A stretch of 64,000 bases of DNA from NCBI GenBank assembly GCA_035687745.1, contig DASRVA010000023.1, forward strand, positions 12,060-76,059. Reading direction: 5' to 3'. Below, piece after piece: positions 1 through 26,109 of the stretch. Made by a program: the position numbers and the translations under genes. Source of the DNA: Gemmatimonadota bacterium (GTDB lineage Bacteria > Gemmatimonadota > Gemmatimonadetes > JACCXV01 > JAHWKZ01). The notes beneath the pieces were generated by a model that searched no databases, was not told the origin of the DNA, and saw only the letters and a list, made by a program, of their open reading frames with translations. Each line of letters starts with the position of its first letter. Within the stretch, counting starts at the first letter, position 1.

Positions 1-2305
1 ACGGGTACGTCCTCGCGGCTTCCTGGAGGATGGGAAGAGCACCCGCAGGATCGCCCCCCTTCCAGCGGGCGTACCCTTCCATCGAGCGGATCATGCCGTC
101 CTCGAAGCGGGCTTCCAGGGTGTCGCCCTCCGCCACGAGCCGCTCTCTCTCCCGGCGGTGGATCGCGAGGCTTCGCAGGTAGTCGTCCCGCCGGCCGCGG
201 TCGATCGAGTAGATCGCTCCGCAGCCGGTCCTCGCGCTGGGCGTCGAGTCCGACGCGCGCAGGGCGAGGTGTTCGTCCAGCACGGCCTCCGGGATGGGCA
301 CGTCGAGGGAAGTGGCCGAAACCAGTAAGCATGCGGGGAACCAGGGCGGTCCCTCCTCGTCGAGGTACGAAAGGGCGTCGGCCAGCCGCCCCCTCCTGGT
401 CAGGTTTCCCCAGAAGAGGGCGTGGGGTACCTGACGGCCCCCTTCCGCGGCGTGGTCCAAAGCCAGCCGTTCATAGATCTCCCAGAAACCGGGATCGTAC
501 AGGTAGTTGAACACGGTCGAGAGGTCGAGGTCGGTCGACGGAAGAGAATCGAGCAGGGCGTCGCGCCGCGTGGAATCGCCGAAGGCGAGCTCGAGTGCGA
601 CGGCGCCCGCGCGCGCGTTCATCCCCTCCGGGCTCGCTACCAGGAGCTCGGCCACCCGTCGGGCCGCCCGGGCGCTGTCAGGAGGGCTCATGAACGCGAA
701 CTCGGTGGGGTGGAAGCGATAGGGCGCGAACGACGGGTCCAGCTCGACCGCCCGGAGCGCCGTCTGCTCCGCCTCCTCGAGCGTCGCCAGGGCCGAGGTA
801 TGATGATAGTAGATGTCGGCCAGCAGGAACCACGCCTCGGCATCGTCCGGATAACGGCGGGTCACCTCGCGCATCCGTTCGGCGCCTTCGGAGAATCCCA
901 GGTTCAGGAACAGCTCGCCCTCGACGAGGAGCCGCTCCCGTTCCGGAAGCCGGTCTGCGTGTCGGAGCGCCTTCAGCCTGGCTTCGACCACCAGGGGTCC
1001 CGGTTCCGTCCACCCGATGGTCGTGGCCACGCGGTTCCAGGCCAGGGCGAAAGTCGAGTCGGCCTCGACGGCGATCTCGTACAGCTCCCTGGCCGGCGCG
1101 ACCTCGCCGCGGCGGAACAGGGCCTCGCCTTCGAGGAAGGCCTTGAGGGCCGGGATGGAGGTCGTGGTGAGCGCGGCCAGGTTGACCCTGGGGACCTCGC
1201 CCTCGCCCTTTTCGAGAATGACCTCGAGAATCTCGCGCGCGAGACCGTCCACGAGCGCGAAGACGCTGTCCGGCGTCCCCTCGACCTGCCCGGTCCCGAG
1301 ACGCGCTCCGTTCTCGACATTATAGACTTCGGCGAGGAGACGGAGATTCGGGCCGATCGCCACGGCCGACCCGAGGAGGGCGTAGCGGGCCCCGGTCGTG
1401 CGTGCCACACGCAGAGCGGTCTCGGTGTCGGCGCGCTGGCCCTCCGGAACCTGGCGGTCCCACTGGGCGAGGAGCGTGCGGCTGTCGATCCCGCGCAGGT
1501 CTCCGGCTCCATCCAGCGTCGTGGAGAGGAGGGTCACCATCCCCTCCCGCCACTCGTCGAGCCCGGGGCTCGACACCTCGAACGGCAGCACGGCGACGCC
1601 GGGGGCCGCCGCGCCCGCCACGGCCTCCGGTGGCGCGAGGCTCCGGCCGCGATCCCGTATCATGACGTAGACCCCGGCGGCGCCGAAGAGCAGCGCGAGC
1701 GCGATGGCCGCGCCGAGCAGGGGCTCCCTCCTTCCTGTCGGTCGCCCGAGGATCCTTTCCCATCGGCGGCCCGCGGGGCGGGGCTCGCGGGCTTCCCCGG
1801 CCAGCTCCTCGGGCACGGTCGTCAGGGCATAGAGCCGCCACGCCCCCGGCACACCCTTCAGCTCGTGCTCGCCCCGGCCCTCGAACCCGAACCCCGAGCC
1901 GATCTCCGCATCCCGGACCGTCGCCGAGACGAGGACCTCGCCGGGCTGGGCCAGAGCCGCCACGCGCGCGCCGATGTGGACCGCGATGCCACCGACCGCG
2001 CCGTCCGATCGCTCCACCTCGCCCAGATGGAGGCCGCAGCGCACGTCGAGGCCCATGTCGCGCACCGCGTCGCGAATCTCCGCGGCGCAGGCGAGCGCGC
2101 GGGCCGGGCTGTCGAAGACCGCCAGGAAGCCGTCACCAGCGGTCGCGACCTCCCGGCCACCGTAGTGTCGGAGCCGCTCGCGGACGAAGTGGTGATGCTG
2201 CCGGAGAATCTCCTGCCAGCGAAGATCGCCATGGACCGCGGCCTTCTCGGTGGAGGCGACGATGTCGGTGAAGAGGACCGTGGCGATCGAGCGCTGGGGT
2301 CTCAT
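1..2305 (-). CDS. Membrane-anchored class III adenylate/guanylate cyclase (CHD) with C-terminal TPR-like domain; 3' end runs off the window
   Basis: Minus-strand translation from the ATG at 2305..2303 gives MRPQRSIATVLFTDIVASTEKAA...GDGFLAVFDSPARALACAAEIRDAV...GLHLGEVE... (cyclase homology domain motifs). This is followed by a hydrophobic segment (LLGAAIALALLFGAAGVYVMI) and a long helical-repeat region. There is no stop codon inside the window. Plus-strand ORF 422..2389 is its antisense shadow. Confidence 0.8.
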   Translation of the reverse strand, partial: MRPQRSIATVLFTDIVASTEKAAVHGDLRWQEILRQHHHFVRERLRHYGGREVATAGDGFLAVFDSPARALACAAEIRDAVRDMGLDVRCGLHLGEVERSDGAVGGIAVHIGARVAALAQPGEVLVSATVRDAEIGSGFGFEGRGEHELKGVPGAWRLYALTTVPEELAGEAREPRPAGRRWERILGRPTGRREPLLGAAIALALLFGAAGVYVMIRDRGRSLAPPEAVAGAAAPGVAVLPFEVSSPGLDEWREGMVTLLSTTLDGAGDLRGIDSRTLLAQWDRQVPEGQRADTETALRVARTTGARYALLGSAVAIGPNLRLLAEVYNVENGARLGTGQVEGTPDSVFALVDGLAREILEVILEKGEGEVPRVNLAALTTTSIPALKAFLEGEALFRRGEVAPARELYEIAVEADSTFALAWNRVATTIGWTEPGPLVVEARLKALRHADRLPERERLLVEGELFLNLGFSEGAERMREVTRRYPDDAEAWFLLADIYYHHTSALATLEEAEQTALRAVELDPSFAPYRFHPTEFAFMSPPDSARAARRVAELLVASPEGMNARAGAVALELAFGDSTRRDALLDSLPSTDLDLSTVFNYLYDPGFWEIYERLALDHAAEGGRQVPHALFWGNLTRRGRLADALSYLDEEGPPWFPACLLVSATSLDVPIPEAVLDEHLALRASDSTPSARTGCGAIYSIDRGRRDDYLRSLAIHRRERERLVAEGDTLEARFEDGMIRSMEGYARWKGGDPAGALPILQEAARTYP

Positions 2306-2321
2306 GAACGGGGGAAACGTA

Positions 2322-3725
2322 TCACGAACACGGCCGGCGGGGAACGTGCGGACGCCCCCAGAGAAACAGGACGACCATCCCTCCGATGAAGGCGAGGACC
2401 GAGGCCGCCAGAATTGCGAGCTTGGCGACCGCCATGAGCTCACCCTGCCCGAACGCCAGCCCCGCGATGAAGAGCGACATCGTGAACCCAATGCCGGCCA
2501 GCCAGGCCACCCCGTAGAGCTGCGCCCACCGGGCGTCCGACGGGAGGGCGGCCAGGCCGAGCCTGGTCGCCCCCCAGGCGAAGAACGTGATTCCGATCGA
2601 CTTGCCGAGGAGGAGGCCGGCGACGATTCCGAGTGCGATCGGGTGCCCGAGCATCGCCGACGGTGAGCCTTGGATGGTGACCCCGGCATTGGCCAGTGCG
2701 AAGAGCGGGAGGACCCCGAAGACGACCCACGGGTGTAGCGCGTCCTCGAGCCGCTGGAGGGGCGTCTGGACGTGCTCGACGGCCTCTTCGAGCGCGCCCA
2801 GGGCATTCTGCTGGCCGCCGCTCACGAGACGCGCCGAGCGGAACTCGGAGACCTCCTCGAAGTCCTCGAGGATCGAGGCGCTCCGCCGCAGGAACTCCCG
2901 GCTGTCGAGCCGCCGCCGGGCGGGGATCGTTATCGCCACCAGAACACCGGCGATGGTCGCGTGGACTCCGGAGTGCAGGAAGGCCACCCACACCCCGAGG
3001 CCGGCCAGGGCGTAGGGGAGCGGGCTCCGGATCCGGGACGCGTTGAAGAGCGCACAGGCGACGAGCCCCGCCGCCCCGGCGCCCAGCCAGGACCACGACA
3101 CACCGTGGGCGTAGAAGACCGCGATCACCAGGATCGCGCCAAGATCGTCGACGATCGCGAGCGCGGTGAGAAACACCTTGAGCGACGCCGGCACCCGGCT
3201 TCCCAGCACGGAGACGGCCGCCACCGCGAATGCGATGTCGGTCGCCATCGGCACCCCCCATCCCGCTGCGCCCGGTCCGCCGGCGTTGACGACCGCGTAG
3301 ATCGCGGCCGGCGCGAGCATGCCTCCCAGCGCCCCGGCGATCGGCAGCATGGCCTTTCTCGGCTCGGCGAGCTCGCCGGCCACGACCTCGCGCTTGATCT
3401 CGAGCCCCACGACGAAGAAGAACAGCGCCATGAGGCCGTCGTTGATCCAGTGGAGCAGGGACTCGTCCAGGCGGAGACGAGCCACCTCGATCGAGACGTG
3501 GGTCGCCCACAGCTCCTCGTAGGCGGCCCGGAAGGGGGAGTTGGCCCACGCCAGGGCGATGACGGCGCACGCCAGGAGCACCGCGCCCCCGGCGGCCTCG
3601 AGACGCAGGAACTCCCGGAAGGCGCCGCGCAGTCGGATCGCCGGAGCCGCTACGGCGCCTCCTCCTCGATCTCCGCCTCCCAGCCGATCTCGACCGCCCC
3701 ACGCAGCGACGCCGCGGTCGGGCAC
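2322..3725 (-). CDS. nhaA: Na+/H+ antiporter NhaA
   Basis: Carries the NhaA signature FFFVVGLEIKRE and the overall NhaA TM layout (AIVDDLGAILVIAVFY, HATIAGV). The only canonical start, ATG at 3725, overlaps the 3' end of the OsmC-like gene by 76 nt. No ATG/GTG/TTG lies between the OsmC stop and the first conserved NhaA helix. Confidence 0.8.
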   Translation of the reverse strand: MPDRGVAAWGGRDRLGGGDRGGGAVAAPAIRLRGAFREFLRLEAAGGAVLLACAVIALAWANSPFRAAYEELWATHVSIEVARLRLDESLLHWINDGLMALFFFVVGLEIKREVVAGELAEPRKAMLPIAGALGGMLAPAAIYAVVNAGGPGAAGWGVPMATDIAFAVAAVSVLGSRVPASLKVFLTALAIVDDLGAILVIAVFYAHGVSWSWLGAGAAGLVACALFNASRIRSPLPYALAGLGVWVAFLHSGVHATIAGVLVAITIPARRRLDSREFLRRSASILEDFEEVSEFRSARLVSGGQQNALGALEEAVEHVQTPLQRLEDALHPWVVFGVLPLFALANAGVTIQGSPSAMLGHPIALGIVAGLLLGKSIGITFFAWGATRLGLAALPSDARWAQLYGVAWLAGIGFTMSLFIAGLAFGQGELMAVAKLAILAASVLAFIGGMVVLFLWGRPHVPRRPCS

Positions 3726-4114
3726 TTCGACTGATGCCCCGCCAGCGCCCGGTCGACCTTCTCCCGCTCGCCCGGCGGCACCCTCAGCCGGTACCGGATG
3801 TGGATCCGGGTCAGGACGGGAAGCCGGTCCACGATCTCGTTGATCCCCTCGGCCTCGGCCTGGATCGCGTCAGGCTCGAGCCGGACCCCGCGCACCTCCA
3901 GTGCGCCGTTGAGCGTCCCCAGCATTCAGCCCGCGGCGGAGGCGACGATGTAGTCGACCGGCAGCGGCAGATCGGGCGCGTCGATCCGATAGTGCTCCCT
4001 AACCGGTCCGTGCACGCCCATGTCGAACTCCGCTCCGGTGGGGAGCGTCGCCCGGCGATGGACGCCCGCGACCTTTCTCACGGATACGCGACTGACGTAA
4101 AAAGGCTCGCTCAC
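3650..4114 (-). CDS. OsmC/Ohr-family peroxiredoxin-like protein with an in-frame TGA at the peroxidatic Cys position (candidate selenoprotein)
   Basis: Starts at a GTG preceded by AGGAGG plus 6 nt. The translation aligns to E. coli OsmC: IVASAAG-[TGA]-MLGTLNGAL corresponds to IGAAHAA-C-FSMALSLML, and QSKCPTAASLRGAVEI corresponds to KAGCPVSQVLKAEITL. Track ORFs 3926..4114 and 3650..3925 share one frame and are separated only by the TGA at 3926..3928. Confidence 0.65.
3883..3918 (-). other. Candidate bacterial SECIS hairpin downstream of the OsmC in-frame UGA
   Basis: On the minus strand, 7 to 43 nt after the UGA: lower stem GGAC/GUCC, internal loop, upper stem GCGCAC/GUGCGC, apical loop UGGAG. 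Confidence 0.4.
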
Positions 4115-8115: not shown

Positions 8116-8852
8116 CCTCCCGACGGCGGGGCGTCGAGAGTGAGCCCCGCATGGATGTCACGGGCGGCGGCCGCCAGCAGATCGGCGTCGCGTGCCCTGA
8201 GAACCACCTTGCAGCGATAGCGGCCGTCCAGGAACACCGGATACGAGCCGATCCCGACCCCGGGGTGCCGTCCCTGGATCGCGGCCAGGGTCTCGGAGAA
8301 ATCCCCCTCCTTGCCGAGCACCCAGAGCGTCTCCTTGTAGAACGGGTCCGAGAGGAGTTGATCGGCGGCGGACTCGAAGACGTCGCGCAGGAGGTCCGGC
8401 ACGCCGGGGAACGCCAGCACGCCGCCCACGCGGAAGGCGAAGGCGAGCCGCTGGCGCCCACGCAGAAGGCGCGCCCCGCGCGGGAGCTCGGCCATACGCC
8501 GTTCGGCCGGCGTGAGGCGATCGCCGTAATCGACAGCCAGGAGCTCCTCGGCGTCGGGCTGAACCTCGAGCGGGAGCTCGAGCGCAGCCGCGACCGCCTG
8601 CCGCGTCACGTCGTCATGGGTCGGCCCGAGGCCCCCGGTCAGGATCACGTAATCGTTGTCGCGCGCCTGGCGCCGGACCTCGTCCGCGATCTCCTCGAGC
8701 CGGTCGCCCACGACCACGATCCGGCTGACCCGGATCCCCAACTCCCACATGCGGCGCGCCAGGAACGGGGTGTTCAGGTCCTGGACCTCGCCGGAGAGGA
8801 TCTCGTCGCCGACGATGACCAGGGCCGCCGAGCGCGGCCCGGAGGGGCTCAC
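8112..8852 (-). CDS. Molybdopterin-binding (MoaB/MogA/CinA N-terminal-like) domain protein
   Basis: ALVIVGDEILSGEVQDLNTPFLARRM...YVILTGGLGPTHDDVT. GTG start overlaps the FNR stop (GTGA). ATGA overlap with the downstream oxidoreductase. Confidence 0.7.
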   Translation of the reverse strand: MSPSGPRSAALVIVGDEILSGEVQDLNTPFLARRMWELGIRVSRIVVVGDRLEEIADEVRRQARDNDYVILTGGLGPTHDDVTRQAVAAALELPLEVQPDAEELLAVDYGDRLTPAERRMAELPRGARLLRGRQRLAFAFRVGGVLAFPGVPDLLRDVFESAADQLLSDPFYKETLWVLGKEGDFSETLAAIQGRHPGVGIGSYPVFLDGRYRCKVVLRARDADLLAAAARDIHAGLTLDAPPSGG

Positions 8853-9847
8853 TCGCTCTTCCACTTCTCTTCGGTGGAGTGCCCAGGGAAGGCGCGCGCG
8901 TCCGGATCGATAAAGGTCTTGGCGAAGTTGACCGCGACCGCCGCCTCGCCGAAGCCGGTGGCGATCAGGTCCAGCTTGCCGTCGTGATCGGTGACGTCCC
9001 CGGCCGCGTAGACGCCCGGCAGGTTGGTCTCCATCCGCTCGTTGACCACGATCCCGTTCTTGTGCATCTCCAGGCCCCACTCCTTGATCGGACCCAGGTC
9101 GGCCTTGAACCCGACGTTGATGAGGAGCGAATCCACCTGATGGATCTGCTCCTCGTCGGTCCGGTTGTCGAAGATCGTCACCTCCTCGAGATGGCTGTTG
9201 CCGGCCACCGAGCGGACCTCGTAGTGGGTCATGATCCGGCAGAAGCCGCCTTCCTGGACGTACTTGATCGTCGCCTCGTGGGCGCGGAACCCCTCGCGCC
9301 GGTGAATCAGGGTCATCGACCGGGCCACGTCCTCCAGGTTCTGCGCCCAGTCGAACGCGCTGTCGCCGCCGCCGACGATCATGATCCGTTTCCCGGCGAG
9401 CGCCTTCTTGTCCCGGACGAGGTACTGGACGCCGCGTCCCTCGAAACTCTCGAGACCCTCGACCTTGAGCCGCCGGGGCTCGAAGGCCCCGATCCCGGCC
9501 GAGATCACGATCGTCCGGGTGCGGTACGCGCTCTTGTCGGTGGTGAGGAGCCAGACACCGTCATCCTCCCGTTCCAGCGTGCGCACGGTCTCACCGAGGA
9601 CCACGCTCGGCTGGAACTGGAGCGCCTGGTCCACCAGTCCGGTGGCCAGGTCCTTGGCCAGGATCTTCGGGAAGCCGCCGACGTCGTAGACGTACTTCTC
9701 CGGATACAGGGTCATGAGCTGCCCACCGAGCTCCTCGAGGGAGTCGAGGATCAAGGTCTTCATGTGCCGCATTCCGGCGTAAAAGGCGCCGAAGAGGCCG
9801 GTCGGGCCGGCGCCCAGGATGGCGACGTCGTAGATCTCGTGGGTCAT
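8849..9847 (-). CDS. Ferredoxin-NADP+ reductase, thioredoxin-reductase-like type (YumC-like)
   Basis: High similarity along its length to B. subtilis YumC (LYPEKYVYDVGGFPKI, LIATGFGEAAVAVNFAK, two GxGxxG motifs). Confidence 0.85.
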   Translation of the reverse strand: MTHEIYDVAILGAGPTGLFGAFYAGMRHMKTLILDSLEELGGQLMTLYPEKYVYDVGGFPKILAKDLATGLVDQALQFQPSVVLGETVRTLEREDDGVWLLTTDKSAYRTRTIVISAGIGAFEPRRLKVEGLESFEGRGVQYLVRDKKALAGKRIMIVGGGDSAFDWAQNLEDVARSMTLIHRREGFRAHEATIKYVQEGGFCRIMTHYEVRSVAGNSHLEEVTIFDNRTDEEQIHQVDSLLINVGFKADLGPIKEWGLEMHKNGIVVNERMETNLPGVYAAGDVTDHDGKLDLIATGFGEAAVAVNFAKTFIDPDARAFPGHSTEEKWKSE

Positions 9848-9857
9848 CGAAACGTCC

Positions 9858-10310
9858 TCAGAGCGTGTCGAGAAGGCGCTGCAGCGTGACGAGAAGCTGC
9901 CGCTGCCCCTGGATCCCCAGGGTCGCGGTCACGCGGTGCCGGAGCCGGGTCTGCCGATCGGTCAGGACGCGCTCCAGCTCCCGGGCGCGCGGAGTCAAAT
10001 ATAGCCGCTTCACCCGGTGGTCCGAAGGGTCCCTGTCGAGCCGTACGTAGCCGTCCTGGACGAGTCCGCGGACGATCGTCGTCATGGACGACTTGGCGAG
10101 CCCCGCACTGGCCGCCACCTCGCTGATCGGCAGCCCATCCTCGTCGAACAGGGGCAAGAGAACCTGGCAGGTCGTGCCCGTCACCCCGGGGAAGCCGGCC
10201 GCCCGACACCCCTCCACCAGCCGCTGGAGCCAGCGCTCCGCCCCTCCGGCGAGAAGGGCGCCGAGATCGGGGTTCCCCGCCACGGAGGGATAAGTACGCA
10301 TTCGAACCAA
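9858..10310 (-). CDS. MarR family transcriptional regulator
   Basis: Winged-helix region LPISEVAASAGLAKSSMTTIVRGLVQDGYVRLDRDPSDHRVKRLYLT. Confidence 0.8.
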   Translation of the reverse strand: MVRMRTYPSVAGNPDLGALLAGGAERWLQRLVEGCRAAGFPGVTGTTCQVLLPLFDEDGLPISEVAASAGLAKSSMTTIVRGLVQDGYVRLDRDPSDHRVKRLYLTPRARELERVLTDRQTRLRHRVTATLGIQGQRQLLVTLQRLLDTL

Positions 10311-12720: not shown

Positions 12721-13110
12721 ATGGAACTCCGCTGCCCGCAGTGCGGGACGGTCTACGACGTGAGCGGCTATGCGCCCGGCCACACGTTCGCGTGCGCCTG
12801 CGGCCAGACCCTCAAGGTCTCGGCAGCGCCGGTCGGCGGCGCGCCCCCGCAGGTACGCGGGCCCGACCCGGGCCTGCCGGGCCTCGTCAAGGCGCTCGTC
12901 TTCTTCGCCAACCTGTGCTTCAGCCCGCTCTCGGCGATCATCGCGCTCATCGTGTGGCTCCTGATCCGCGACGACAAGCCGCGCACGGCCGACGACCTCT
13001 GCAAGTTCACCTGGATCCCGTTCGTGCTCTGGATCCTGCTGGTCGGGCTGTACATGGTGTTCGCGGTCATGTTCGGGTTGATGGATTCGATGGGAGGGCT
13101 CGGCCAGTGA
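12721..13110 (+). CDS. Zinc-ribbon domain membrane protein (hypothetical)
   Basis: N-terminal CPQCG...CACG zinc ribbon followed by two hydrophobic helices. Confidence 0.6.
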   Translation: MELRCPQCGTVYDVSGYAPGHTFACACGQTLKVSAAPVGGAPPQVRGPDPGLPGLVKALVFFANLCFSPLSAIIALIVWLLIRDDKPRTADDLCKFTWIPFVLWILLVGLYMVFAVMFGLMDSMGGLGQ

Positions 13111-13532
13111 CGGACTGCTTCCTGGCGCGGGCGGGTTCGGCCCGGCCGCCCGGCGCGCGACCGCCGATCCTGCGTCCGGGCCCTGGGCTCAGGAGCCCCG
13201 TCGCGCTCGCGCTCGGCTGCCACGGCCACCCGGACCGGTGCCTAGGGTGGCGAGGCCACCCGATGCCGGTCTGTGCGCGCTGCACGGGGATCCTGATCGG
13301 GAATCTGGCCGCGCTACCGTGGTTCGCCGCCCACGGGCTCCCCGGGACGGGTCCGGCGCTGGCGGGTCTGGCGCTGCTCCTCCCGGCCGCGCTGGACGGC
13401 GGCCTCCAGCTCGCGACCCGTTACCGGAGCGGTCCCGCGCGCCGTCTCTCGACCGGCCTCGCGGCCGGCTTCGGCCAGGCCCTGCTCGCACTGGGCCTCC
13501 TGGCCGCGCTGTTCGGTCTCCCTACGGGCTGA
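13107..13532 (+). CDS. DUF2085 family membrane protein
   Basis: CHGHPDRC...PVCARCTGI motif typical of DUF2085. The start is uncertain: the GTG at 13107 overlaps the upstream TGA (GTGA), and an alternative ATG lies at 13263. Confidence 0.55.
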   Translation: MTDCFLARAGSARPPGARPPILRPGPGLRSPVALALGCHGHPDRCLGWRGHPMPVCARCTGILIGNLAALPWFAAHGLPGTGPALAGLALLLPAALDGGLQLATRYRSGPARRLSTGLAAGFGQALLALGLLAALFGLPTG

Positions 13533-13536
13533 ACCA

Positions 13537-14091
13537 ATGGCGTGGATCCGGACGATCGACGAGAGCGACGCGGAGGGACCGCTGGCCGAGCTTTATCGCC
13601 GGCTCCAGCGGGCCGACGGCGGCGTGGACAACATTCTCAAGATCCATGGGCTGAACCCGCCTTCTCTCACCGGCCATTACGACTACTACCGCACGATCAT
13701 GCGCGGCCCTTCGCCCCTCACGCGCGCTCAGCGCGAGATGATCGCGGTCGTCGTATCAGCCGTGAACCAGTGCCACTATTGACTGGTCCATCACGGAGCG
13801 GGTCTCCGTAAGCTCACGAAGGATCAGGATCTGGTGGCCGCTCTGGCCGACGACTACAGGCAGGCCAGGCTGAGTACGGCGGATCGAGCGATGCTCGATT
13901 ACGCGGTCAAGCTGACACGCGAGCCCTGGGGTATGGAAGCCGCCGACCTCGAGCCTCTGCGCGAAGCCGGCTTCGTGGACGCTGCGATCCTCGACATCGC
14001 CCAGGTCACCGCGTACTACGCCTACGTGAATCGGCTGGCCGATGGGCTCGGCGTGGAACTGGAAGACTACTGGAATCAGATCAAGTCCTAG
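13537..14091 (+). CDS. AhpD/carboxymuconolactone-decarboxylase-family (peroxidase-related) protein with an in-frame TGA in the CxxC motif (candidate selenoprotein, CxxU)
   Basis: Track ORFs 13537..13782 and 13834..14091 are in one frame, separated only by the TGA at 13780..13782. The translation reads VNQCHY-[TGA]-LVHHGAGLR, matching the AhpD-like N-x-C-x-x-C-x-x-x-H active-site motif with the second Cys replaced by TGA. Full length 184 aa is typical for the family. Confidence 0.65.
13793..13809 (+). other. Candidate bacterial SECIS hairpin downstream of the AhpD-like in-frame UGA
   Basis: Stem ACGGAG/CUCCGU with apical loop CGGGU, beginning 10 nt after the UGA. Confidence 0.4.
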
Positions 14092-14266
14092 GGCCTCTTC
14101 CGCTGGACCCATCCAGACCATCCGTTTCAGAACTGATCTTGACCCTTGGGCTCGGGATCAAGGCGCCACTGAACTTCTCGGTCTTCTCGGCGTCGGCCGG
14201 AGCGTTTCTGTTAGCGGCGCGCCCACGAGCGTAGACTCGAGGACGGAGATGAAAAGCTGGATCGGG

Positions 14267-14476
14267 TCATGACCCGGCGGGGGCGTTCTCCGTCGGCGGG
14301 TGTCCTTCGGCGGGCTCCTCGTGTTCCACGCTTGCGGCCGGACCGCGGTCTACGGGCGGCACGGCCGTCGCCGCGGCGGCGTACCCGCCTCCGGTCGATT
14401 GGAGGTTCGGCCGCTCCAGCCAGCAGGCGGCGGCCAGCGGCAGGAGGCCCAGGGCGGCGATTCGAACGACACGCAT
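14267..14476 (-). CDS. Small putative lipoprotein (hypothetical)
   Basis: MRVVRIAALGLLPLAAAC signal peptide with a lipobox, followed by a low-complexity tail. Weak support. Confidence 0.3.
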   Translation of the reverse strand: MRVVRIAALGLLPLAAACWLERPNLQSTGGGYAAAATAVPPVDRGPAASVEHEEPAEGHPPTENAPAGS

Positions 14477-14632
14477 CGTTCCGCGCGGGAGCCTAGCGGG
14501 AGGCACCGCAAAGCGCCACGCGGGCCGAGCTGCCCGCTCGACCGTGCCCGTGGCCCTGAAGGCCGTTCGATCAGGAACGCCCAGTATCGTATACTATGGC
14601 ACGAATGGTGCGACGAGCGGACCGATCGTCCG

Positions 14633-15736
14633 ATGTGGCTACCGGCCGCCCTCCTCGCCCTCTGGCTTTCCGTTCTGCCCCACCTGCTCGCCGTCCTGGG
14701 CTCCCCGCCGAAGGTCGTGCCGGGCGGGTCCGGACCAGCCAATGGCCTGAGCATCGCGGCGAGCCGGGGCGACTCGACCGCCGAGCAGGTGGTGGCTGTC
14801 CTCCACCTCCGCAGGGAGAACCTCCCCCACGCGATCCGGGGCGAGATCTATCCGGTCGCGCGGATCGTCGGCGACCGCTACGAGGATGCGCTCGTCACCG
14901 GACCGAATCCGCTCACCGACGAGTCGCCGTCACCCCTCGCGAGGAGCGCGCTCGATTCCGCCCGCGCCTTCACGGTCTACGACCGGGGGGCGCCCATCGG
15001 GACCTTTGCCGTCACCGACATCGGTCCCGCCGTCTACAGCTGCCGCGGAGTCATGGTCGGGTTCGGCCGCCTGGAGATCCCCGAGCGTTACGTCCGCTTC
15101 GGTCGCTTCGATCCGCGTGTCCACTCTCTCAGCGTGTCCGGGCAGGGCGTGCGGTACGAGTACACGCTCAACTACTACCTGGCCCTCGGCCGGCCCGTCC
15201 CGCAGGACGGGTTCCGCGCCGACTCTACCGCCGACCGGAGCGCGGCATCGCGGCTTCGCGCGGCTGTCTGGACCGAGGGCGTGAAGGCGCTCAGCGAGTA
15301 CGGCGAGGGTCCCTGGCTCCCCGGCGCGCGGTGGGAGAACCCGCGCTGGAGCCTGGAGGAGGGTTTCCAGGTCTTCGACCTGGACCGGGACGGGCGGATG
15401 GAGGGAATGGGCGTCCTGGAAGCGATCGTCACCGACGAGGGGGCTCCGATCGACGCCGGTCTCGGCCCCAGCCAGTACGTGGCGACGGCCATCGTATGGG
15501 CGTCGGACCGCAGCGCGGAAGGCCGCCCGTCACCGCTTCTCGTCCTGCGCCACGCGCGCGAGGTCCGGCACTGGAACTTCGGCTACCACCTGGCCGAGGT
15601 GATGGACCTCGACGGCGACGGCCGGGCCGAGCCCTTCTACCAGGTCGAGGCGTGGGAGTACTACGGGTTCCAGATCTACGCGCTGCGAGGGGAGCGGCTG
15701 GAGGAGGTCTTCAACGGCGCGGGATACGGCTGCTGA
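14633..15736 (+). CDS. Secreted hypothetical protein
   Basis: The ATG at 14633 gives the signal peptide MWLPAALLALWLSVLPHLLA. The upstream part of track ORF 14300..15736 is low-complexity and probably not coding. Confidence 0.6.
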   Translation: MWLPAALLALWLSVLPHLLAVLGSPPKVVPGGSGPANGLSIAASRGDSTAEQVVAVLHLRRENLPHAIRGEIYPVARIVGDRYEDALVTGPNPLTDESPSPLARSALDSARAFTVYDRGAPIGTFAVTDIGPAVYSCRGVMVGFGRLEIPERYVRFGRFDPRVHSLSVSGQGVRYEYTLNYYLALGRPVPQDGFRADSTADRSAASRLRAAVWTEGVKALSEYGEGPWLPGARWENPRWSLEEGFQVFDLDRDGRMEGMGVLEAIVTDEGAPIDAGLGPSQYVATAIVWASDRSAEGRPSPLLVLRHAREVRHWNFGYHLAEVMDLDGDGRAEPFYQVEAWEYYGFQIYALRGERLEEVFNGAGYGC

Positions 15737-23041: not shown

Positions 23042-24345
23042 CAGCCGACCCCGAAGATCTCCTCCGCCCGGTGGAGACCCCGGACGAGCGCCTCGAGATC
23101 GTCCGCGTCGTTGTAAAGGTAGAACGACGCCCGCGCCGTGGCGGCCACCCCCAGGCGCCTCATGAGCGGCTGGCAGCAGTGGTGGCCGGCCCGGACGGCG
23201 ACCCCCTCGTGGTCGAGGATCGTCGCCAGGTCGTGGGGATGGATGTCGGCCAGCGTGAAGGAGACGACGCCGGCCCGCGGAGTAGCCGGATCCGGGCCGT
23301 GGAGGCGGATCCGCGGGAACTCGTCGGCCAGGCGCGCGAGCGCGAGCTCGGCCATCCTGCGCTCGTGGGCGTGGATCCGGTCACGGCCGACCTCGTCCAG
23401 GAAGTCGGCCGCCGCCGCCAGGCCGATCGCGCCCGCGATGTGCGGCGTTCCGGCCTCGAACCGATAGGGGACCCGCGCGTAGGTCGAGCGCTCGATCCGG
23501 ACCTCCTCGATCATCTCGCCGCCCCCCTGGTAGGGGGGCATCGCGTCCAGCAGCTCCTTGCGCGCCCACAGGACGCCGATCCCGGTAGGGCCGCACATCT
23601 TGTGGCCGCTGAAGGCGTAGAAGTCGCAGCCGATCGCGCGCACGTCGAATGGCATCTGGGGCGCGGCCTGGGCGCCGTCGACGAGATATCGGGCCCCGGC
23701 GCCCCTGGCCCGGCGCGCGATCTCCGCGACCGGGTGAAGCGTGCCGAGCGCGTTCGAGACGTGACCGGTCGCGACCAGCCGGACACGGCCCTCGGCCAGC
23801 CGGCGGTCCAGGTCTTCCAGGTCCAGCTCGCCCTGGTCGGTCATGCCGACGGCCTCGATCCCGGCTCCGGTCGCCTCGCAGGCGAGCTGCCACGGCACCA
23901 GGTTCGAGTGGTGCTCCATCTCGGTCACGAGGACGATGTCACCCGGCCCCAGGTTGGCGCGTCCCCACGACGCGGCCACCAGGTTGATCGACTCGGTGGT
24001 CGAGCGCGTGAAGACGATCTCGTCCGCCCGCCCCGCTCCCGCGAACCGCGCCATCCGCCGGCGCGCCTCCTCGTAGCGGTCGGTCGCCCGCACCGCGAGC
24101 GTGTGGGCGCCCCGGTGGACGTTGGCGTGGTCGCGCAGGTAGTAGTCCCTTACCGCGTCGATCACGGCATCCGGCTTCTGGGACGAGGCCGCGCTGTCCA
24201 GGTAGGCGAGCCGGTGGCCGTGGACCTCCTGGTCCAGCACCGGGAACCGGCGCCGGATGGCGGCCGTGTCGAGCGGCGGGGCTTGTCCCGCTTCGACCAC
24301 GGTCGTGGCGTTGGTGGAGCCGGCTTCCTGGATTCTGTCGCTCAT
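23041..24345 (-). CDS. sufS: Cysteine desulfurase SufS
   Basis: PLP-lysine motif FSGHKMCGPTGIGVL and RAGHHCCQPLM. ATG at 24345 with GAGGG upstream. Track ORF 23041..24531 is N-terminally over-extended. Confidence 0.85.
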   Translation of the reverse strand: MSDRIQEAGSTNATTVVEAGQAPPLDTAAIRRRFPVLDQEVHGHRLAYLDSAASSQKPDAVIDAVRDYYLRDHANVHRGAHTLAVRATDRYEEARRRMARFAGAGRADEIVFTRSTTESINLVAASWGRANLGPGDIVLVTEMEHHSNLVPWQLACEATGAGIEAVGMTDQGELDLEDLDRRLAEGRVRLVATGHVSNALGTLHPVAEIARRARGAGARYLVDGAQAAPQMPFDVRAIGCDFYAFSGHKMCGPTGIGVLWARKELLDAMPPYQGGGEMIEEVRIERSTYARVPYRFEAGTPHIAGAIGLAAAADFLDEVGRDRIHAHERRMAELALARLADEFPRIRLHGPDPATPRAGVVSFTLADIHPHDLATILDHEGVAVRAGHHCCQPLMRRLGVAATARASFYLYNDADDLEALVRGLHRAEEIFGVG

Positions 24346-24374
24346 CCGCGCACGCGAGCCCTCGGCCGCCCCGG

Positions 24375-24716
24375 TCACTCCGGCGGCATGTCGAGGGTGT
24401 CGGGGTCGGGGACGGCGACCCAGACCTCGCCGTCGCGGACCTCGAGCGGGAACATGGGGAGCGGCTTGGTGGCAGGGAGCGTCTTCACCTCGCCTGTTCG
24501 CAGGTCGAACGATGCGCCGTGGAAGTCGCACGTCAGCCGCTCGCCCATCAGAAACCCCTGAGTGAGCTGGTACTGCTGGTGGGTGCAGCAGTCGTGGAAG
24601 GCGTAGAAGCTTCCGTCCACGTGGGCGATCCCGACCAGGACGCCGTTGACCTCGAACGCCTCCATCTCGCCGTCGGGGATGGCGTCCGTCGTCGTCAGCT
24701 TCACGAACTCGGCCAT
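24375..24716 (-). CDS. Rieske [2Fe-2S] ferredoxin-like protein embedded in the suf operon
   Basis: Rieske motifs CTHQ and CDFHG. Confidence 0.85.
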   Translation of the reverse strand: MAEFVKLTTTDAIPDGEMEAFEVNGVLVGIAHVDGSFYAFHDCCTHQQYQLTQGFLMGERLTCDFHGASFDLRTGEVKTLPATKPLPMFPLEVRDGEVWVAVPDPDTLDMPPE

Positions 24717-24717
24717 G

Positions 24718-26109
24718 TCACCCGAGCTTCTTCTGGATCACGCGGCTCAGCCGCTCGTGAAGCCACTCCACCTCGAGCCGCGACAGGACCTCCTCGAAGA
24801 AGCCGCTCACGATGAGCTTCTCGGCCTGCTGGCGGGTCAGCCCGCGGCTCATCAGGTAGAAGATCTGCCGCTCGTCCTGCTGGCCGATCGTGGCCCCGTG
24901 CGAGCAGCGCACGTCGTCGGCCTCGATCTCCAGGTTGGGAAGCGAATCGGCGTGCGCGTCCTCGGAGAGGATCAGGTTCCGGTTCGTCTGGTAGGCGTCG
25001 GTGCCCTGGGCGCCCGGGAGAACGCGGATCATGCCACGGAAGACCGACCGGGCGCGGTCCTTGAGGGCCCCCTTGTAGAGCAGGTCCGACCCGGCGTGCG
25101 GGGCCTGGTGGAGCTGATACGTGTAGTGGTCGAAGTGCTGGTTGGAGTCGCCGAGGTAGAGTCCCAGCATCTCCGAGTGGGCGCCCTCACCCTGGAGATC
25201 CGTCTCGACGTCCGACCGCGCCACCCGCGCCCCGAGCGTCACCAGGAACGACTGGATCTGGGCGTCCTTGTGCGCGAATACGCGGGCCGCCTGGTAATGG
25301 AACACGTGCCGGCCCCACTCCTGGACGATCGCGTACCGCACGTTGGCGCCTTCCTCGGCCACGATCTCCGTCACCCCGCAGTTCATCGCCCACCCCTCGA
25401 CGGCCCGGGCGGGGGACCGGCATTCCTCGACGTACGTCACCTTGCTCTGCGGGCCCGCGATCAGGAGCGTGTGCGGGAAGACGGCGGCTCCTTCAAGGTC
25501 GAGCCAGCGGAAGGTCGAGAGCGGTAGCTCCACCTCGACTCCGGCCGGGACGTACACGACCGTCCCGCCCGAGACGAACGCGCCATGGAGCGCCGCCAGC
25601 TTGCCGAACTCCGGGGTCACGGCCGAGGTCATGAAATACTTGCGAAGAAGGTCGGGGTGCTCGCGGACGGCGGTCTCGAAGTCGAGGAACAGAACCCCCC
25701 TCGCGGTCAGTTCGTCCGCCACCCGCCGGTGGACCTGGACGCCGTTGACCTGGATCCCGAAGGCGGCCGACCCGCCCTCCTCGCTCACGGCCTCGCGAAG
25801 CTCCTCCGGCAGCCGCGCCGGATCCTCGACTCCAGCCGGCCGCTCCGGCAGGTGCATCATGAGCTCCTGCCAGGGGATCTTCGAGAGGTCGGTGTAGCGC
25901 CACTCCTCGGTCTTGGTCGTGGGCGTCGGGGTCTCCTGGTACACCTCCCAGGCCCGCCGCCGGCGCTCGGCCATCCAGTCCGGCTCGCCGCGGTCCCGGA
26001 CGATCGCCTCGACGGTCTCGGGGCCGACCTCCCCCCGGACGGACGGCGCCGTGTCGATGTCCCTCGTCAACGTCTCGCTCACTCCTCCTCCTCGGACATG
26101 TCGATCCAT
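24718..26109 (-). CDS. sufD: Fe-S cluster assembly protein SufD
   Basis: SufB/SufD-family C-terminal beta-helix region. The ATG at 26109 is chosen here. An alternative GTG at 26082 has the strong SD GGAGGAGGA. Track ORF 24718..26901 extends into sufB and is not used. Confidence 0.75.
   Translation of the reverse strand: MDRHVRGGGVSETLTRDIDTAPSVRGEVGPETVEAIVRDRGEPDWMAERRRRAWEVYQETPTPTTKTEEWRYTDLSKIPWQELMMHLPERPAGVEDPARLPEELREAVSEEGGSAAFGIQVNGVQVHRRVADELTARGVLFLDFETAVREHPDLLRKYFMTSAVTPEFGKLAALHGAFVSGGTVVYVPAGVEVELPLSTFRWLDLEGAAVFPHTLLIAGPQSKVTYVEECRSPARAVEGWAMNCGVTEIVAEEGANVRYAIVQEWGRHVFHYQAARVFAHKDAQIQSFLVTLGARVARSDVETDLQGEGAHSEMLGLYLGDSNQHFDHYTYQLHQAPHAGSDLLYKGALKDRARSVFRGMIRVLPGAQGTDAYQTNRNLILSEDAHADSLPNLEIEADDVRCSHGATIGQQDERQIFYLMSRGLTRQQAEKLIVSGFFEEVLSRLEVEWLHERLSRVIQKKLG

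What the first reader, a model, noticed from the sequence alone, without database searches (positions are those of the whole stretch)
13537..14091. AhpD/CMD-family protein with CxxC converted to CxxU by an in-frame TGA, followed by a SECIS-like hairpin
Track ORFs 13537..13782 and 13834..14091 are in the same frame and together give a 184-aa AhpD-like (carboxymuconolactone decarboxylase family) protein. The sequence reads VNQCHY-TGA-LVHHG, the family's N-x-C-x-x-C-x-x-x-H redox motif with the second Cys replaced by TGA. Ten nt downstream is the hairpin ACGGAG-CGGGU-CUCCGU with a GGU-containing apical loop, matching bacterial SECIS geometry. AhpD-like is a known selenoprotein family. This is a second, independent TGA-at-catalytic-Cys event 10 kb from the OsmC case, which makes sequencing error unlikely.
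Basis: partly seen in the sequence, partly recalled or inferred. Interest (0 to 1): 0.85.

Follow-up and report, generated by a model that had tools for sequence, protein, structure and literature searches.

The report
Known AhpD-like selenoprotein gene, unannotated
This is an ordinary member of the long-known AhpD-like family of selenium-containing antioxidant enzymes, in which one TGA "stop" codon is read as selenocysteine; it matters mainly because public gene calls cut it into two nameless fragments.

Summary
Window 13537..14091 (+) is one reading frame of 184 codons with a single in-frame TGA at 13780-13782. The context is VNQ-C-H-Y-TGA-LVHH, and the hairpin ACGGAG/CGGGU/CUCCGU lies 10 nt downstream.

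The interpretation also holds. With Cys in place of the TGA, the protein matches NCBIfam TIGR01926 over its full length (159 bits; cut-off 81.8). All 158 closest DNA homologues I could read have TGA at exactly this codon. They span Gemmatimonadota, Chloroflexota, Acidobacteriota, Planctomycetota, Marinimicrobia and other phyla. True Cys forms also exist.

Codon choice at the hairpin positions is strongly biased towards the pairing bases, for example Arg CGT 77% against 12% elsewhere in the same genes. The encoded G-A/E-G tripeptide is kept in Sec forms but not in Cys forms. Three independent assemblies carry the identical TGA. TGA is the normal stop in the window.

A second selenoprotein candidate, OsmC-like, lies 9.9 kb away and its TGA is conserved in a related genome.

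No Sec machinery (selA, selB, selD, tRNA-Sec) lies in the window, so that check remains open.

The family "AhpD-like protein, TIGR01926, CxxU" has been published since 2005, so this is real but already known. Interest is low.

The parts
13537..14091 (+). Complete coding sequence of the AhpD-like (TIGR01926) selenoprotein: 184 residues, ATG start, TAG stop at 14089-14091, one internal UGA
   Evidence: Translation. TIGR01926 159.1 bits over residues 2-174, and Pfam CMD. The N-terminus MAWI and the length match full-length homologues. Both halves show more synonymous than non-synonymous differences against the closest homologues.
13780..13782 (+). In-frame TGA, predicted selenocysteine codon (U82). 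It corresponds to the second Cys of the CxxC motif (Cys133 of M. tuberculosis AhpD).
   Evidence: Sequence. TGA at the aligned codon in 80/80 genome loci and 78/78 readable metagenome loci. TGC/TGT in Cys forms. Identical TGA in three independent assemblies.
13771..13773 (+). TGC, Cys79: first Cys of the CxxU motif and predicted resolving residue
   Evidence: Invariant column in alignment A1. Maps to position 130 of the TIGR00777 AhpD profile.
13735..13737 (+). GAG, Glu67: predicted proton-relay glutamate, 12 residues before Cys79
   Evidence: Invariant in A1. Same spacing as Glu118-Cys130 in MtAhpD and Glu36-Cys48 in PA0269 (PMC3141380).
13792..13794 (+). CAC, His86: predicted proton-relay histidine (CxxU-x3-H). 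It overlaps the start of the hairpin.
   Evidence: Invariant in A1. Corresponds to His137 of MtAhpD and His55 of PA0269.
13793..13809 (+). Predicted bacterial SECIS element: a 17-nt hairpin with a 6-bp stem ACGGAG/CUCCGU and the apical loop CGGGU, starting 10 nt after the UGA
   Evidence: Sequence. The same hairpin sits at the same offset in homologues: 85% of pair cells are paired, against 29-55% when the partners are slid. Codon choice at its positions differs sharply from the rest of the same genes: GGR 96% vs 39%, GCG 85% vs 35%, GGT 53% vs 16%, CTC 81% vs 32%, CGT 77% vs 12%. Single-sequence folding is not significant.
13263..13532 (+). Upstream DUF2085 membrane-protein gene. Its stop is 4 nt before the ATG of the selenoprotein gene, so the two are probably co-transcribed (context, not part of the recoding device).
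   Evidence: Pfam DUF2085, 80 bits. Public gene call at the same place. The gene order is kept in related Gemmatimonadota loci L005, L006, L008, L009 and L106.
3650..4114 (-). Second selenoprotein candidate in the window: an OsmC-like gene with in-frame TGA at 3926-3928 (context VASAAG-TGA-MLGTLNG). It supports the view that this organism decodes UGA as Sec.
   Evidence: Translation. The Pfam OsmC match spans the TGA. The TGA is conserved in the homologue of Gemmatimonadota MAG locus L008. The hairpin GCGCAC/UGGAG/GUGCGC lies downstream.

Best explanation
13537-14091 (+) encodes a 184-residue selenoprotein of the AhpD-like / 'peroxidase-related enzyme' family (TIGR01926, CMD fold).

Recoding (inferred from the established bacterial Sec pathway). 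UGA at codon 82 is not a stop. During translation, the 17-nt hairpin 10 nt downstream (13793-13809, apical loop CGGGU) acts as a bacterial SECIS. It recruits SelB-GTP carrying Sec-tRNA(Sec), and selenocysteine is inserted.

Enzyme (inferred from homology to M. tuberculosis AhpD, P. aeruginosa PA0269 and D. radiodurans DR1765). The product is a small all-helical thiol/selenol oxidoreductase. Its active site is the proton relay Glu67 - Cys79 - Tyr81 - Sec82 - His86. Sec82 occupies the place of the attacking Cys133 of MtAhpD. It would react with a peroxide, or with an oxidised partner peroxidase, to give a selenenylsulfide with Cys79. A cellular dithiol system would then re-reduce that bond.

What is shown here: the frame, the family membership, conservation of the TGA, the sequence constraint on the hairpin, and purifying selection on the part after the TGA.

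What is inferred: Sec insertion itself, the SelB interaction and the enzymatic role.
For: 1. Family. The match to TIGR01926 is full length, 159.1 bits against a cut-off of 81.8. Pfam CMD also matches. Solved relatives are 2pfx, 3c1l, 6k40, 2oyo and 2prr, at E 1e-33 to 1e-26.

2. TGA conservation. TGA is at the identical codon in 80/80 best genome loci from at least 9 phyla and in 78/78 readable metagenome loci, 158 in total. There is no TGG among them.

3. Cys forms. Real Cys codons occur at the same site in L166-L170, and 49 of the 120 best database proteins have Cys.

4. Selection after the TGA. The part downstream of the TGA is as conserved as the upstream part, with synonymous differences exceeding non-synonymous ones. 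Invariant residues such as R166 and G170-L171-G172-V173 lie after the TGA.

5. Hairpin. It sits at a fixed offset with strongly biased synonymous codons that create the stem and loop. 85% of pair cells are paired, against 29-55% in slid controls. Seven cells carry compensatory double changes; 0 of 500 shuffles reach that number. The G-A/E-G tripeptide encoded by the hairpin is present in 38 of 48 Sec forms but 3 of 49 Cys forms.

6. Standard genetic code. TGA terminates 23 of 34 Pfam-supported ORFs in the window.

7. Reproducibility. The identical TGA appears in three independent assemblies.

8. Second candidate. An OsmC-like gene with a conserved in-frame TGA lies in the same window.

9. Active site. 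Glu67, Cys79, Tyr81 and His86 are invariant. Their spacing is that of the AhpD proton relay.

10. Literature. The family with this exact motif is published as a selenoprotein family.
Against: - No selA, selB, selD or tRNA-Sec lies in the 64-kb window, nor was any tRNA-Sec found in 60 related loci. A window this small could not be expected to show them either way.
- The hairpin is short, with 6 bp. In this sequence alone it is not more stable than shuffles.
- RNAalifold gives no consensus structure.
- Raw folding energy is only weakly better than synonymous-codon resampling, with mean z -0.78.
- No Rfam family matches.
- The p-values ignore the relatedness of the sequences.
- No experimental evidence for Se incorporation exists for this gene.
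Confidence: 0.9

Rival explanations
1. UGA82 is recoded, but not to selenocysteine. It might be read as Cys through a tRNA-Sec-like tRNA(Cys) and a SelB-like factor. Alternatively, near-cognate read-through might insert Trp, Cys or Arg.
For: The Sec machinery could not be examined. Natural variants of this family carry Arg (AGA), Leu (TTA) or Gly (GGA) at the site. The position therefore tolerates other residues in some lineages. SelB-dependent Cys recoding has been proposed in some bacteria (my own recollection of the literature, not checked here).
Against: The site is the redox-active second Cys of CxxC, which is the classical Sec/Cys exchange position. The family is a published selenoprotein family. 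A conserved structured element at the SelB-type distance is unnecessary for simple leaky read-through. A second Sec/Cys-type TGA occurs in the same window.
Confidence: 0.04
2. TGA is a true stop. The locus makes an 81-residue fragment, and perhaps a separate 85-residue product from GTG 13834, as public gene calls have it.
For: Automatic gene callers split the locus into unnamed 81-aa and 85-aa ORFs. The hairpin alone is thermodynamically unremarkable.
Against: The split would cut the CxxC-x3-H active site in two and sever a single compact domain that matches TIGR01926 end to end. The 17 codons between the TGA and GTG 13834 are conserved in frame in all homologues. The GTG start is not conserved as a start in the alignment. 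TGA at exactly the Cys codon in 158 homologues across phyla cannot be a termination signal kept by chance.
Confidence: 0.03
3. The gene is a pseudogene, or the TGA is a sequencing or assembly error: a nonsense mutation of TGC/TGT (Cys) or TGG.
For: A single base separates TGA from TGC, TGT and TGG.
Against: Three independent assemblies (ERZ27257128, ERZ27257132, SRR5195114) hold the identical gene with TGA. All 158 closest homologues have TGA. Purifying selection persists downstream of the TGA.
Confidence: 0.02
4. The organism uses a genetic code in which TGA is a sense codon everywhere (code 4, TGA = Trp, or code 25, TGA = Gly).
For: Public databases translate many homologues with W at this position. 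48 of the 120 best hits have W and 6 have G.
Against: TGA ends 23 of 34 Pfam-supported ORFs in the window. The one W entry whose DNA I read (P0001 / L001) is TGA in a gene that does not translate to the database protein under code 11. This is consistent with a gene-caller artefact on short contigs. The lineages involved (Gemmatimonadota, Chloroflexota and others) are not known to use code 4 or 25 (own knowledge).
Confidence: 0.01

Closest known systems
AhpD-like selenoprotein family ('AhpD-like protein', COG2128 / TIGR01926, motif CxxU; Zhang, Fomenko & Gladyshev 2005; 'AhpD-like 1' in the GOS study of 2008; listed in the 2026 review PMC13188914)
   Same: The HMM family is the same: TIGR01926 above cut-off. 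The CxxU motif is the same, with Sec at the second redox position. A short SECIS-like hairpin with G in the apical loop follows directly after the UGA. Sec and Cys forms coexist. The phylogenetic spread is wide.
   Different: Nothing essential. This copy comes from a high-GC (69.7%) genome, probably Gemmatimonadota. In public gene calls it is split into two unnamed ORFs.
Mycobacterium tuberculosis AhpD (TIGR00777): reductase of the peroxiredoxin AhpC, with weak peroxidase activity
   Same: The CMD/AhpD helical fold family is shared. The proton relay has the same spacing, E-x11-C-x-[H/Y]-C-x3-H: Glu67/Cys79/Tyr81/Sec82/His86 here against Glu118/Cys130/His132/Cys133/His137.
   Different: It scores far below the TIGR00777 cut-off, 21.4 against 191.95 bits. 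It has Tyr instead of His at the third relay position, as in PA0269. No ahpC neighbour turned up among the roughly 46 window ORFs that I scanned. It has Sec instead of Cys.
Deinococcus radiodurans DR1765 (PDB 6k40) and the structural-genomics proteins 2pfx, 3c1l (Mlr4105), 2oyo and 2prr: Cys-containing TIGR01926-type AhpD-like proteins
   Same: These are the closest solved relatives, at E 1e-33 to 1e-26 over nearly the whole length, with the motif N-x-C-x-Y-C-L-x-x-H-G. A DR1765 deletion mutant is H2O2-sensitive, and complementation depends on the CxxC cysteines (PMC8945050).
   Different: All of them are CxxC proteins. None contains Sec.
Escherichia coli fdhF-type bacterial SECIS
   Same: It is a stem-loop inside the coding sequence directly 3' of the UGA, with a small apical loop containing G and U. 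The 17-nt hairpin here starts 10 nt after the UGA. From memory, the minimal E. coli element is a 17-nt upper stem-loop 11 nt from the UGA.
   Different: There is no sequence similarity and no bulged U. SelB binding was not tested. No Rfam model matches.
NF041238 'AhpD_rel_CFYUT' alkylhydroperoxidase-related (seleno)protein ('hypothetical protein 1' of the Sargasso Sea study)
   Same: It has a distantly related AhpD-type domain and a CxxU motif.
   Different: It is a different, longer family with a 357-position profile. The score is 56 against a cut-off of 175, so this gene is not a member.

Membership tests
AhpD-like selenoprotein family (TIGR01926, CxxU) | Protein matches the TIGR01926 'peroxidase-related enzyme' model above its curated cut-off, over the full length | tested here: met
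   159.1 bits against a cut-off of 81.8. Residues 2-174 match profile positions 1-174 of 178.
AhpD-like selenoprotein family (TIGR01926, CxxU) | In-frame TGA aligned with the second Cys of the CxxC redox motif of Cys-containing homologues | tested here: met
   The context is C79-H-Y-TGA. The aligned residue is Cys in 49 of the 120 best database homologues. It is TGC or TGT in L166-L170.
AhpD-like selenoprotein family (TIGR01926, CxxU) | TGA conserved at that codon in orthologues from different organisms | tested here: met
   80/80 genome loci and 78/78 readable metagenome loci have TGA. The exceptions found elsewhere are AGA (1), TTA (1 sequence in 2 records) and GGA (1).
AhpD-like selenoprotein family (TIGR01926, CxxU) | Sequence downstream of the TGA is conserved as protein, showing that it is translated | tested here: met
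   Invariant residues lie after position 82. Synonymous differences equal or exceed non-synonymous ones downstream, as they do upstream.
AhpD-like selenoprotein family (TIGR01926, CxxU) | Bacterial SECIS-like stem-loop immediately 3' of the UGA with G in a small apical loop | tested here: met
   The hairpin is at 13793-13809 with loop CGGGU. It is conserved in register. Codon bias at hairpin positions is strong. The hairpin-encoded tripeptide is specific to Sec forms. Caveat: single-sequence energy, RNAalifold and the energy-resampling test are weak or negative.
AhpD-like selenoprotein family (TIGR01926, CxxU) | Host genome encodes the Sec machinery (selA, selB, selC, selD) | not testable with these tools
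   None is present in the 64-kb window. The rest of the genome is not available. Indirect support: a second conserved Sec-type TGA in an OsmC-like gene.
AhpD-like selenoprotein family (TIGR01926, CxxU) | Selenium actually incorporated at the UGA position | not testable with these tools
   This needs 75Se labelling or mass spectrometry.
Canonical AhpD (TIGR00777, M. tuberculosis type, AhpC reductase) | Match to the TIGR00777 model above its cut-off | tested here: not met
   21.4 bits against a cut-off of 191.95. Only residues 62-100 align.
Canonical AhpD (TIGR00777, M. tuberculosis type, AhpC reductase) | Proton-relay residues Glu-x11-Cys-x-His-Cys-x3-His | tested here: met
   Glu67, Cys79, Tyr81 (Tyr as in PA0269), Sec82 and His86. 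Glu67, Cys79, Tyr81 and His86 are invariant.
Canonical AhpD (TIGR00777, M. tuberculosis type, AhpC reductase) | Genetic linkage to ahpC (peroxiredoxin) | tested here: not met
   No AhpC-TSA or Redoxin domain was found among the roughly 46 window ORFs scanned. There is no conserved neighbour across 160 loci. An AhpC-TSA/Redoxin gene does lie near the Leu-variant homologue in L003/L004.
NF041238 AhpD_rel_CFYUT (seleno)protein | Match above the curated cut-off | tested here: not met
   56 bits against a cut-off of 175.
Gamma-carboxymuconolactone decarboxylase (PcaC enzymes of the CMD Pfam family) | CMD domain, plus the context of beta-ketoadipate pathway genes | tested here: inconclusive
   The CMD domain is present (46.1 bits). 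No pca-type neighbours were seen. The best model is the peroxidase-related subfamily, not a decarboxylase.

The most novel reading that the evidence does not exclude
In this Gemmatimonadota lineage, the Sec-containing AhpD-like protein and the Sec-containing OsmC-like protein, encoded 5-10 kb apart, may form a dedicated all-selenium peroxide-detoxifying relay. The AhpD-like selenol would re-reduce the OsmC-like selenoperoxidase, by analogy with the AhpD-to-OsmC electron path reported in Corynebacterium glutamicum. The conserved co-transcribed DUF2085 and Zn-ribbon membrane proteins might tether the relay to the membrane. The evidence that does not exclude this: both genes carry conserved TGA codons and stay close to each other in the related MAG locus L008. 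The AhpD/OsmC link is cited in PMC8945050. Nothing here tests the interaction.
Probability: 0.1. Interest if true: 0.4.

Novelty: already known. Interest (0 to 1): 0.15.

Why it matters
Biologically it adds little. AhpD-like CxxU selenoproteins have been catalogued since 2005 and are among the most abundant selenoprotein families in marine metagenomes.

The practical value lies in annotation.

- The exact locus is stored in public gene calls as two unnamed fragments of 81 and 85 residues.
- Many homologues in large protein databases carry a false Trp at the catalytic position.
- In the closest few hundred relatives, across at least nine phyla, the Sec form appears to be the rule rather than the exception.

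This is a useful reminder for selenoproteome surveys of soil and sediment phyla such as Gemmatimonadota, Chloroflexota and Acidobacteriota. The two Sec-type TGA codons in one window mark the source organism as a probable Sec user.

Tried and rejected
- Rfam. I searched at gathering threshold on the whole window and at E<=10 on 13500-14150. Nothing matched except a tRNA-Asn.
- ARAGORN. There is no tRNA-Sec in the window or in 60 related loci.
- Pfam scan of about 46 window ORFs for SelA, SelB or SelD. None was found.
- Single-sequence folding of the hairpin region. It is not significant, and the 36-nt minimum-energy fold is another structure.
- RNAalifold on 82 aligned sequences. It gave no consensus structure.
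- Folding energy against synonymous-codon resampling. The signal is weak, with mean z -0.78. Some Cys forms fold as well or better. I therefore dropped energy as a statistic in favour of position-specific codon usage.
- Metagenome scan seeded with a Cys-form alignment. It was meant to harvest Cys-form DNA as a control, but every readable locus it returned had TGA. I fetched Cys forms one by one instead.
- Conserved-neighbour clustering over 160 loci. No universal partner gene emerged. One clade has a histidine-ammonia-lyase-like gene downstream in 19 loci. A Gemmatimonadota-specific gene order also appeared.
- Code 4 or 25 reassignment. Rejected on stop-codon usage.
- Literature search for Sec machinery in Gemmatimonadota. 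It gave nothing usable.
- Looking up the protein with U in the exact-match index. The tool does not accept U.
Full report
**1. The observation**

Window 13537-14091 on the + strand translates as a single frame of 184 residues ending in TAG. It has one internal TGA at 13780-13782, in the context ...REMIAVVVSAVNQ-C-H-Y-TGA-L-V-H-H-G-A-G-L-R-K-L.... The hairpin is ACGGAG (13793-13798), CGGGU (13799-13803), CUCCGU (13804-13809). It starts 10 nt after the TGA.

Taken alone, the hairpin is not remarkable. The z-score is -1.18 for a 61-nt stretch and -0.33 for 36 nt. The 36-nt minimum-energy fold is a competing structure. Any claim that this is more than chance has to rest on comparison with other sequences.

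**2. What the protein is**

With Cys substituted for the TGA, the protein matches NCBIfam TIGR01926 ('peroxidase-related enzyme') from end to end. The score is 159.1 bits against a cut-off of 81.8. It also matches Pfam CMD (PF02627).

- It is far below the cut-off of the canonical AhpD model TIGR00777 (21.4 against 191.95 bits).
- It is also below the cut-off of the separate selenoprotein family NF041238 (56 against 175 bits).
- The closest solved structures are the Cys-containing AhpD-like proteins 2pfx, 3c1l, 6k40 (D. radiodurans DR1765), 2oyo and 2prr, at E 1e-33 to 1e-26. They carry the same N-x-C-x-Y-C-L-x-x-H-G motif.

The gapless match to the 177-position TIGR00777 profile places query residues 62-100 on profile positions 113-151. 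This puts Glu67, Cys79, Tyr81, codon 82 and His86 on positions 118, 130, 132, 133 and 137. These are the proton-relay residues Glu118, Cys130, His132, Cys133 and His137 of M. tuberculosis AhpD. P. aeruginosa PA0269 has Glu36, Cys48, Tyr50, Cys51 and His55 (PMC3141380). Glu67, Cys79, Tyr81 and His86 are invariant in my alignment of 25 family members. The TGA thus sits exactly at the second redox Cys.

**3. Is the TGA conserved?**

The protein search gave a first hint. Among the 120 best full-length hits, the aligned residue was C in 49, W in 48, G in 6, R in 2, L in 2 and S in 1. All of these residues can be encoded by a codon one base away from TGA.

Reading the DNA settled it.

- The best 'W' protein, P0001, does not translate to its database sequence under code 11. 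Its codon is TGA.
- One R is a genuine AGA and one L a genuine TTA.
- One G, in a complete Latescibacterota chromosome, is a genuine GGA.

I then fetched DNA for the 80 best relatives in one-genome-per-species contigs. All 80 have TGA at this codon. They come from Gemmatimonadota (best hits 83%, 75% and 73% identity), Chloroflexota, Acidobacteriota, Planctomycetota, Marinimicrobia, SAR324, Calditrichota, Bacillota and Bacteroidota.

A metagenome scan seeded with Cys-form proteins again returned only TGA forms, 78 of 78 readable loci. No locus has TGG.

Real Cys forms were recovered individually: L166, L168, L169 and L170 have TGC, and L167 has TGT. This Sec/Cys pairing at a redox Cys, with the TGA conserved across phyla, is the standard signature of a selenoprotein gene.

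**4. Is the part after the TGA translated?**

Many invariant residues lie after position 82: His86, Leu90, Leu126, Pro130, Arg166 and Gly170-Leu171-Gly172-Val173. Against the closest homologue, L005, the 98 downstream codons show 26 synonymous and 19 non-synonymous differences. The 81 upstream codons show 19 and 9. The other five comparisons behave alike. Codon-position GC is that of a coding region in both halves. The region is therefore under purifying selection as protein.

**5. The hairpin as a SECIS**

In a gapless alignment of 82 distinct sequences, the six proposed pairs form standard pairs in 85% of cells. When the 3' partner is slid by 1-3 columns, the figure is 29-55%. Seven cells carry compensatory double changes, and 0 of 500 shuffles reach that number. 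An example is the synonymous His change CAC to CAU, matched by the Arg-to-His change CGU to CAU, in L034, L050, L052 and L078.

One Chloroflexota clade has a different solution, GGAGC/CGGGCU/GCUCC, with the 3' arm shifted. The loop Gs stay in place.

Because the hairpin encodes a conserved peptide, I tested the synonymous sites directly. The test used 156 distinct Sec-form genes, compared with the same amino acids elsewhere in those genes.

| Codon after the TGA | Observed codon | At this position | Elsewhere in the same genes |
|---|---|---|---|
| Gly +5 | GGA or GGG | 96% | 39% |
| Ala +6 | GCG | 85% | 35% |
| Gly +7 | GGT | 53% | 16% |
| Leu +8 | CTC | 81% | 32% |
| Arg +9 | CGT | 77% | 12% |

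These are exactly the choices that build ACGGRG-CGGGU-CUCCGU. The binomial p-values ignore relatedness, but the effect sizes are large and span many phyla.

The tripeptide G-A/E-G encoded by the 5' arm and loop is present in 38 of 48 'W' (that is, Sec) database proteins, but in only 3 of 49 Cys forms. This suggests that the RNA element, not the protein, imposes it.

The negative or weak results are these.

- RNAalifold predicts nothing.
- Folding energy beats synonymous resampling only slightly, with mean z -0.78. Two Cys forms, L167 and L168, keep good hairpins, which may be fossil elements.
- No Rfam family matches.

The geometry is a 17-nt hairpin 10 nt after the UGA, with G and U in a small apical loop. 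It agrees with what I remember of the minimal E. coli fdhF SECIS and the bacterial SECIS consensus. That comparison is from memory. [quoted passage not shown]

**6. Alternatives**

- Sequencing error or pseudogene. Three independent assemblies (ENA ERZ27257128, ENA ERZ27257132 and Logan SRR5195114) carry the identical 555-nt gene with TGA. All close homologues share the TGA.
- Genome-wide TGA reassignment. TGA terminates 23 of 34 Pfam-supported ORFs in the window.
- True termination with two products. This would bisect the active site and a single domain. The inter-ORF codons are conserved in frame.
- Recoding to something other than Sec. This cannot be formally excluded without the machinery or protein chemistry.

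**7. Sec machinery and context**

The window holds only a tRNA-Asn. Pfam scans of about 46 ORFs found no SelA, SelB or SelD. No tRNA-Sec lies within the flanks held for 60 related loci (at most 6 kb on each side). This test is therefore open, not failed.

Indirect support comes from a second candidate, an OsmC-like gene at 3650-4114 (-).

- It has an in-frame TGA at 3926-3928, in the context VASAAG-TGA-MLGTLNG.
- The Pfam OsmC match spans the TGA.
- The hairpin GCGCAC/UGGAG/GUGCGC lies 19 nt downstream.
- The TGA is conserved in the homologue of Gemmatimonadota MAG locus L008.

The selenoprotein gene starts 4 nt after the stop of a DUF2085 membrane-protein gene (13263-13532). A Zn-ribbon/transmembrane ORF (12721-13110) precedes that. 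The order Zn-ribbon/TM, DUF2085, AhpD-like is kept in the closest Gemmatimonadota loci L005, L006, L008, L009 and L106. The unknown protein that follows downstream is also kept in L006, L008, L009 and L106. Across all 160 loci there is no universal neighbour.

**8. Mechanism**

Shown here: the frame, the family, the conserved TGA at the second redox Cys, sequence-level constraint on the downstream hairpin, and selection on the C-terminal half.

Inferred from the established bacterial pathway: SelB-GTP carrying Sec-tRNA(Sec) binds the hairpin and delivers Sec to UGA82.

Inferred from homology: the product is an AhpD-fold selenol/thiol oxidoreductase. Sec82 is the attacking residue, equivalent to Cys133 of MtAhpD. 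Its role as the nucleophile is from my memory of the MtAhpD mutagenesis work. Cys79 resolves to form a selenenylsulfide, assisted by Glu67, Tyr81 and His86. Re-reduction would come from a lipoamide-type or thioredoxin-type system. The DR1765 knockout phenotype (H2O2 sensitivity, dependent on CxxC) supports an antioxidant role for this subfamily (PMC8945050).

**9. Comparison with what is known, and novelty**

The Sargasso Sea study of 2005 reported 27 'AhpD-like protein' selenoprotein sequences (COG2128, motif CxxU) with predicted SECIS elements. It also reported OsmC-like selenoproteins (PMC1088965). The GOS study lists 'AhpD-like 1' (COG2128, CxxU) with 299 selenoprotein sequences, the fourth most abundant family (PMC2398784). 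A 2026 review tabulates 'AhpD-like protein, TIGR01926, CxxU' (PMC13188914).

The gene in this window meets every sequence-level criterion of that family. It is therefore already known in kind. It is an unannotated instance, not a new variant.

**10. Verdict**

- The finding is a real feature.
- Confidence that this is a Sec-decoded AhpD-like selenoprotein gene is about 0.9.
- Novelty: already known.
- Interest: 0.15.
- The remaining value is for annotation: the public gene calls are split, and many database homologues carry a false Trp. The finding also marks the source organism as a probable Sec user.

Noticed in passing
window 3650-4114 (-), TGA at 3926-3928: This is an OsmC-like gene with an in-frame TGA at the position of the first (peroxidatic) Cys. 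The context is VASAAG-TGA-MLGTLNG, and the Pfam OsmC match spans the TGA. The 6-bp hairpin GCGCAC/UGGAG/GUGCGC lies 19 nt downstream. The TGA is conserved in the homologue on Gemmatimonadota MAG locus L008 (1007-1417, -). OsmC-like is also a published selenoprotein family.
   Followed up: partly
proteins P0001-P0120; locus L001:1299-1301: 48 of the 120 best database homologues carry Trp at the Sec position, and 6 carry Gly. The one W entry whose DNA I read is TGA. No TGG occurs among the 166 DNA loci that I tabulated. The W residues therefore look like code-4-style mistranslations by gene callers on short contigs. The exact window locus is stored as two unnamed ORFs of 81 and 85 aa.
   Followed up: partly
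L002:342-344 (AGA), L003:2397-2399 and L004:1631-1633 (TTA), L165:6244-6246 (GGA): Natural variants have Arg, Leu or Gly in place of Sec, each one base from TGA. L002 keeps the hairpin intact. L165 is in a complete Latescibacterota chromosome. These may be Sec losses that leave a one-Cys protein, errors in single reads, or inactive copies.
   Followed up: partly
L167:1001-1561 and L168:1001-1546 (Cys forms): Two Cys-form genes keep a strong hairpin at the SECIS position. L167 folds at -21.7 kcal/mol and resembles the Sec-form hairpin of L043, L048, L161 and L164. These could be fossil SECIS elements left after a recent Sec-to-Cys conversion. In L168, the neighbouring genes are a Se_S_carrier (PF11823) protein, a class-V aminotransferase and a pyridine nucleotide-disulphide oxidoreductase.
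   Followed up: no
alignment A2 columns 10-12 (window 13789-13791): The first His codon after the TGA (+3) is CAT in 70% of Sec-form genes, against 32% for His elsewhere in the same genes. This position is outside the 6-bp stem and the bias is unexplained. It could be a spacer or lower-stem requirement of the SECIS.
   Followed up: no
L021, L031, L054, L057, L064, L071-L073, L150, L153, L157 (40 nt after the TGA): One clade uses a differently registered hairpin, GGAGC/CGGGCU/GCUCC. Those of its loci that come from named genomes are Chloroflexota. The peptide here is GAGLLRL instead of GAGLRKL. The loop Gs stay at the same distance from the UGA.
   Followed up: partly
window 12721-13110 (+), 13263-13532 (+), 14300-15736 (+): The gene order Zn-ribbon/transmembrane protein, DUF2085 membrane protein, AhpD-like selenoprotein is conserved in Gemmatimonadota MAG loci L005, L006, L008, L009 and L106. 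The unknown protein with no Pfam match that follows downstream is also conserved in L006, L008, L009 and L106. The DUF2085 stop is 4 nt from the selenoprotein ATG.
   Followed up: partly
L085-L104 and related loci, about 380 nt downstream of the TGA: In 19 loci of the CFY-U-INHH clade, a histidine/phenylalanine ammonia-lyase-like gene of about 506 aa directly follows the AhpD-like selenoprotein gene on the same strand. I assigned it from the look of its sequence alone and did not scan it against any family library.
   Followed up: no
window 5-2821 (-), 50456-54040 (-), 58271-61684 (+): The window holds three large paralogous signalling proteins. The two complete ones have the architecture Zn-ribbon, adenylate/guanylate cyclase, AAA_16 ATPase and TPR. 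The third shows only cyclase and TPR matches; its ORF segment reaches base 2 of the window, so it may be cut off there.
   Followed up: no
window 23044-28972 (-): This is a Suf iron-sulfur cluster assembly cluster. It contains an Rrf2-family regulator, a SufC-like ABC ATPase, SufB/D, a small Rieske-like ORF (24375-24737, with motifs CCTHQ and CDFHG) and a class-V aminotransferase (SufS-like). SufS-type enzymes can also act as selenocysteine lyases, but no link to the selenoprotein genes was tested.
   Followed up: no
window 8852-10310 (-): A thioredoxin-reductase-like pyridine nucleotide-disulphide oxidoreductase lies next to a MarR-family regulator. The pair sits between the two selenoprotein candidates and could be a reductant system, but this was not tested.
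   Followed up: no
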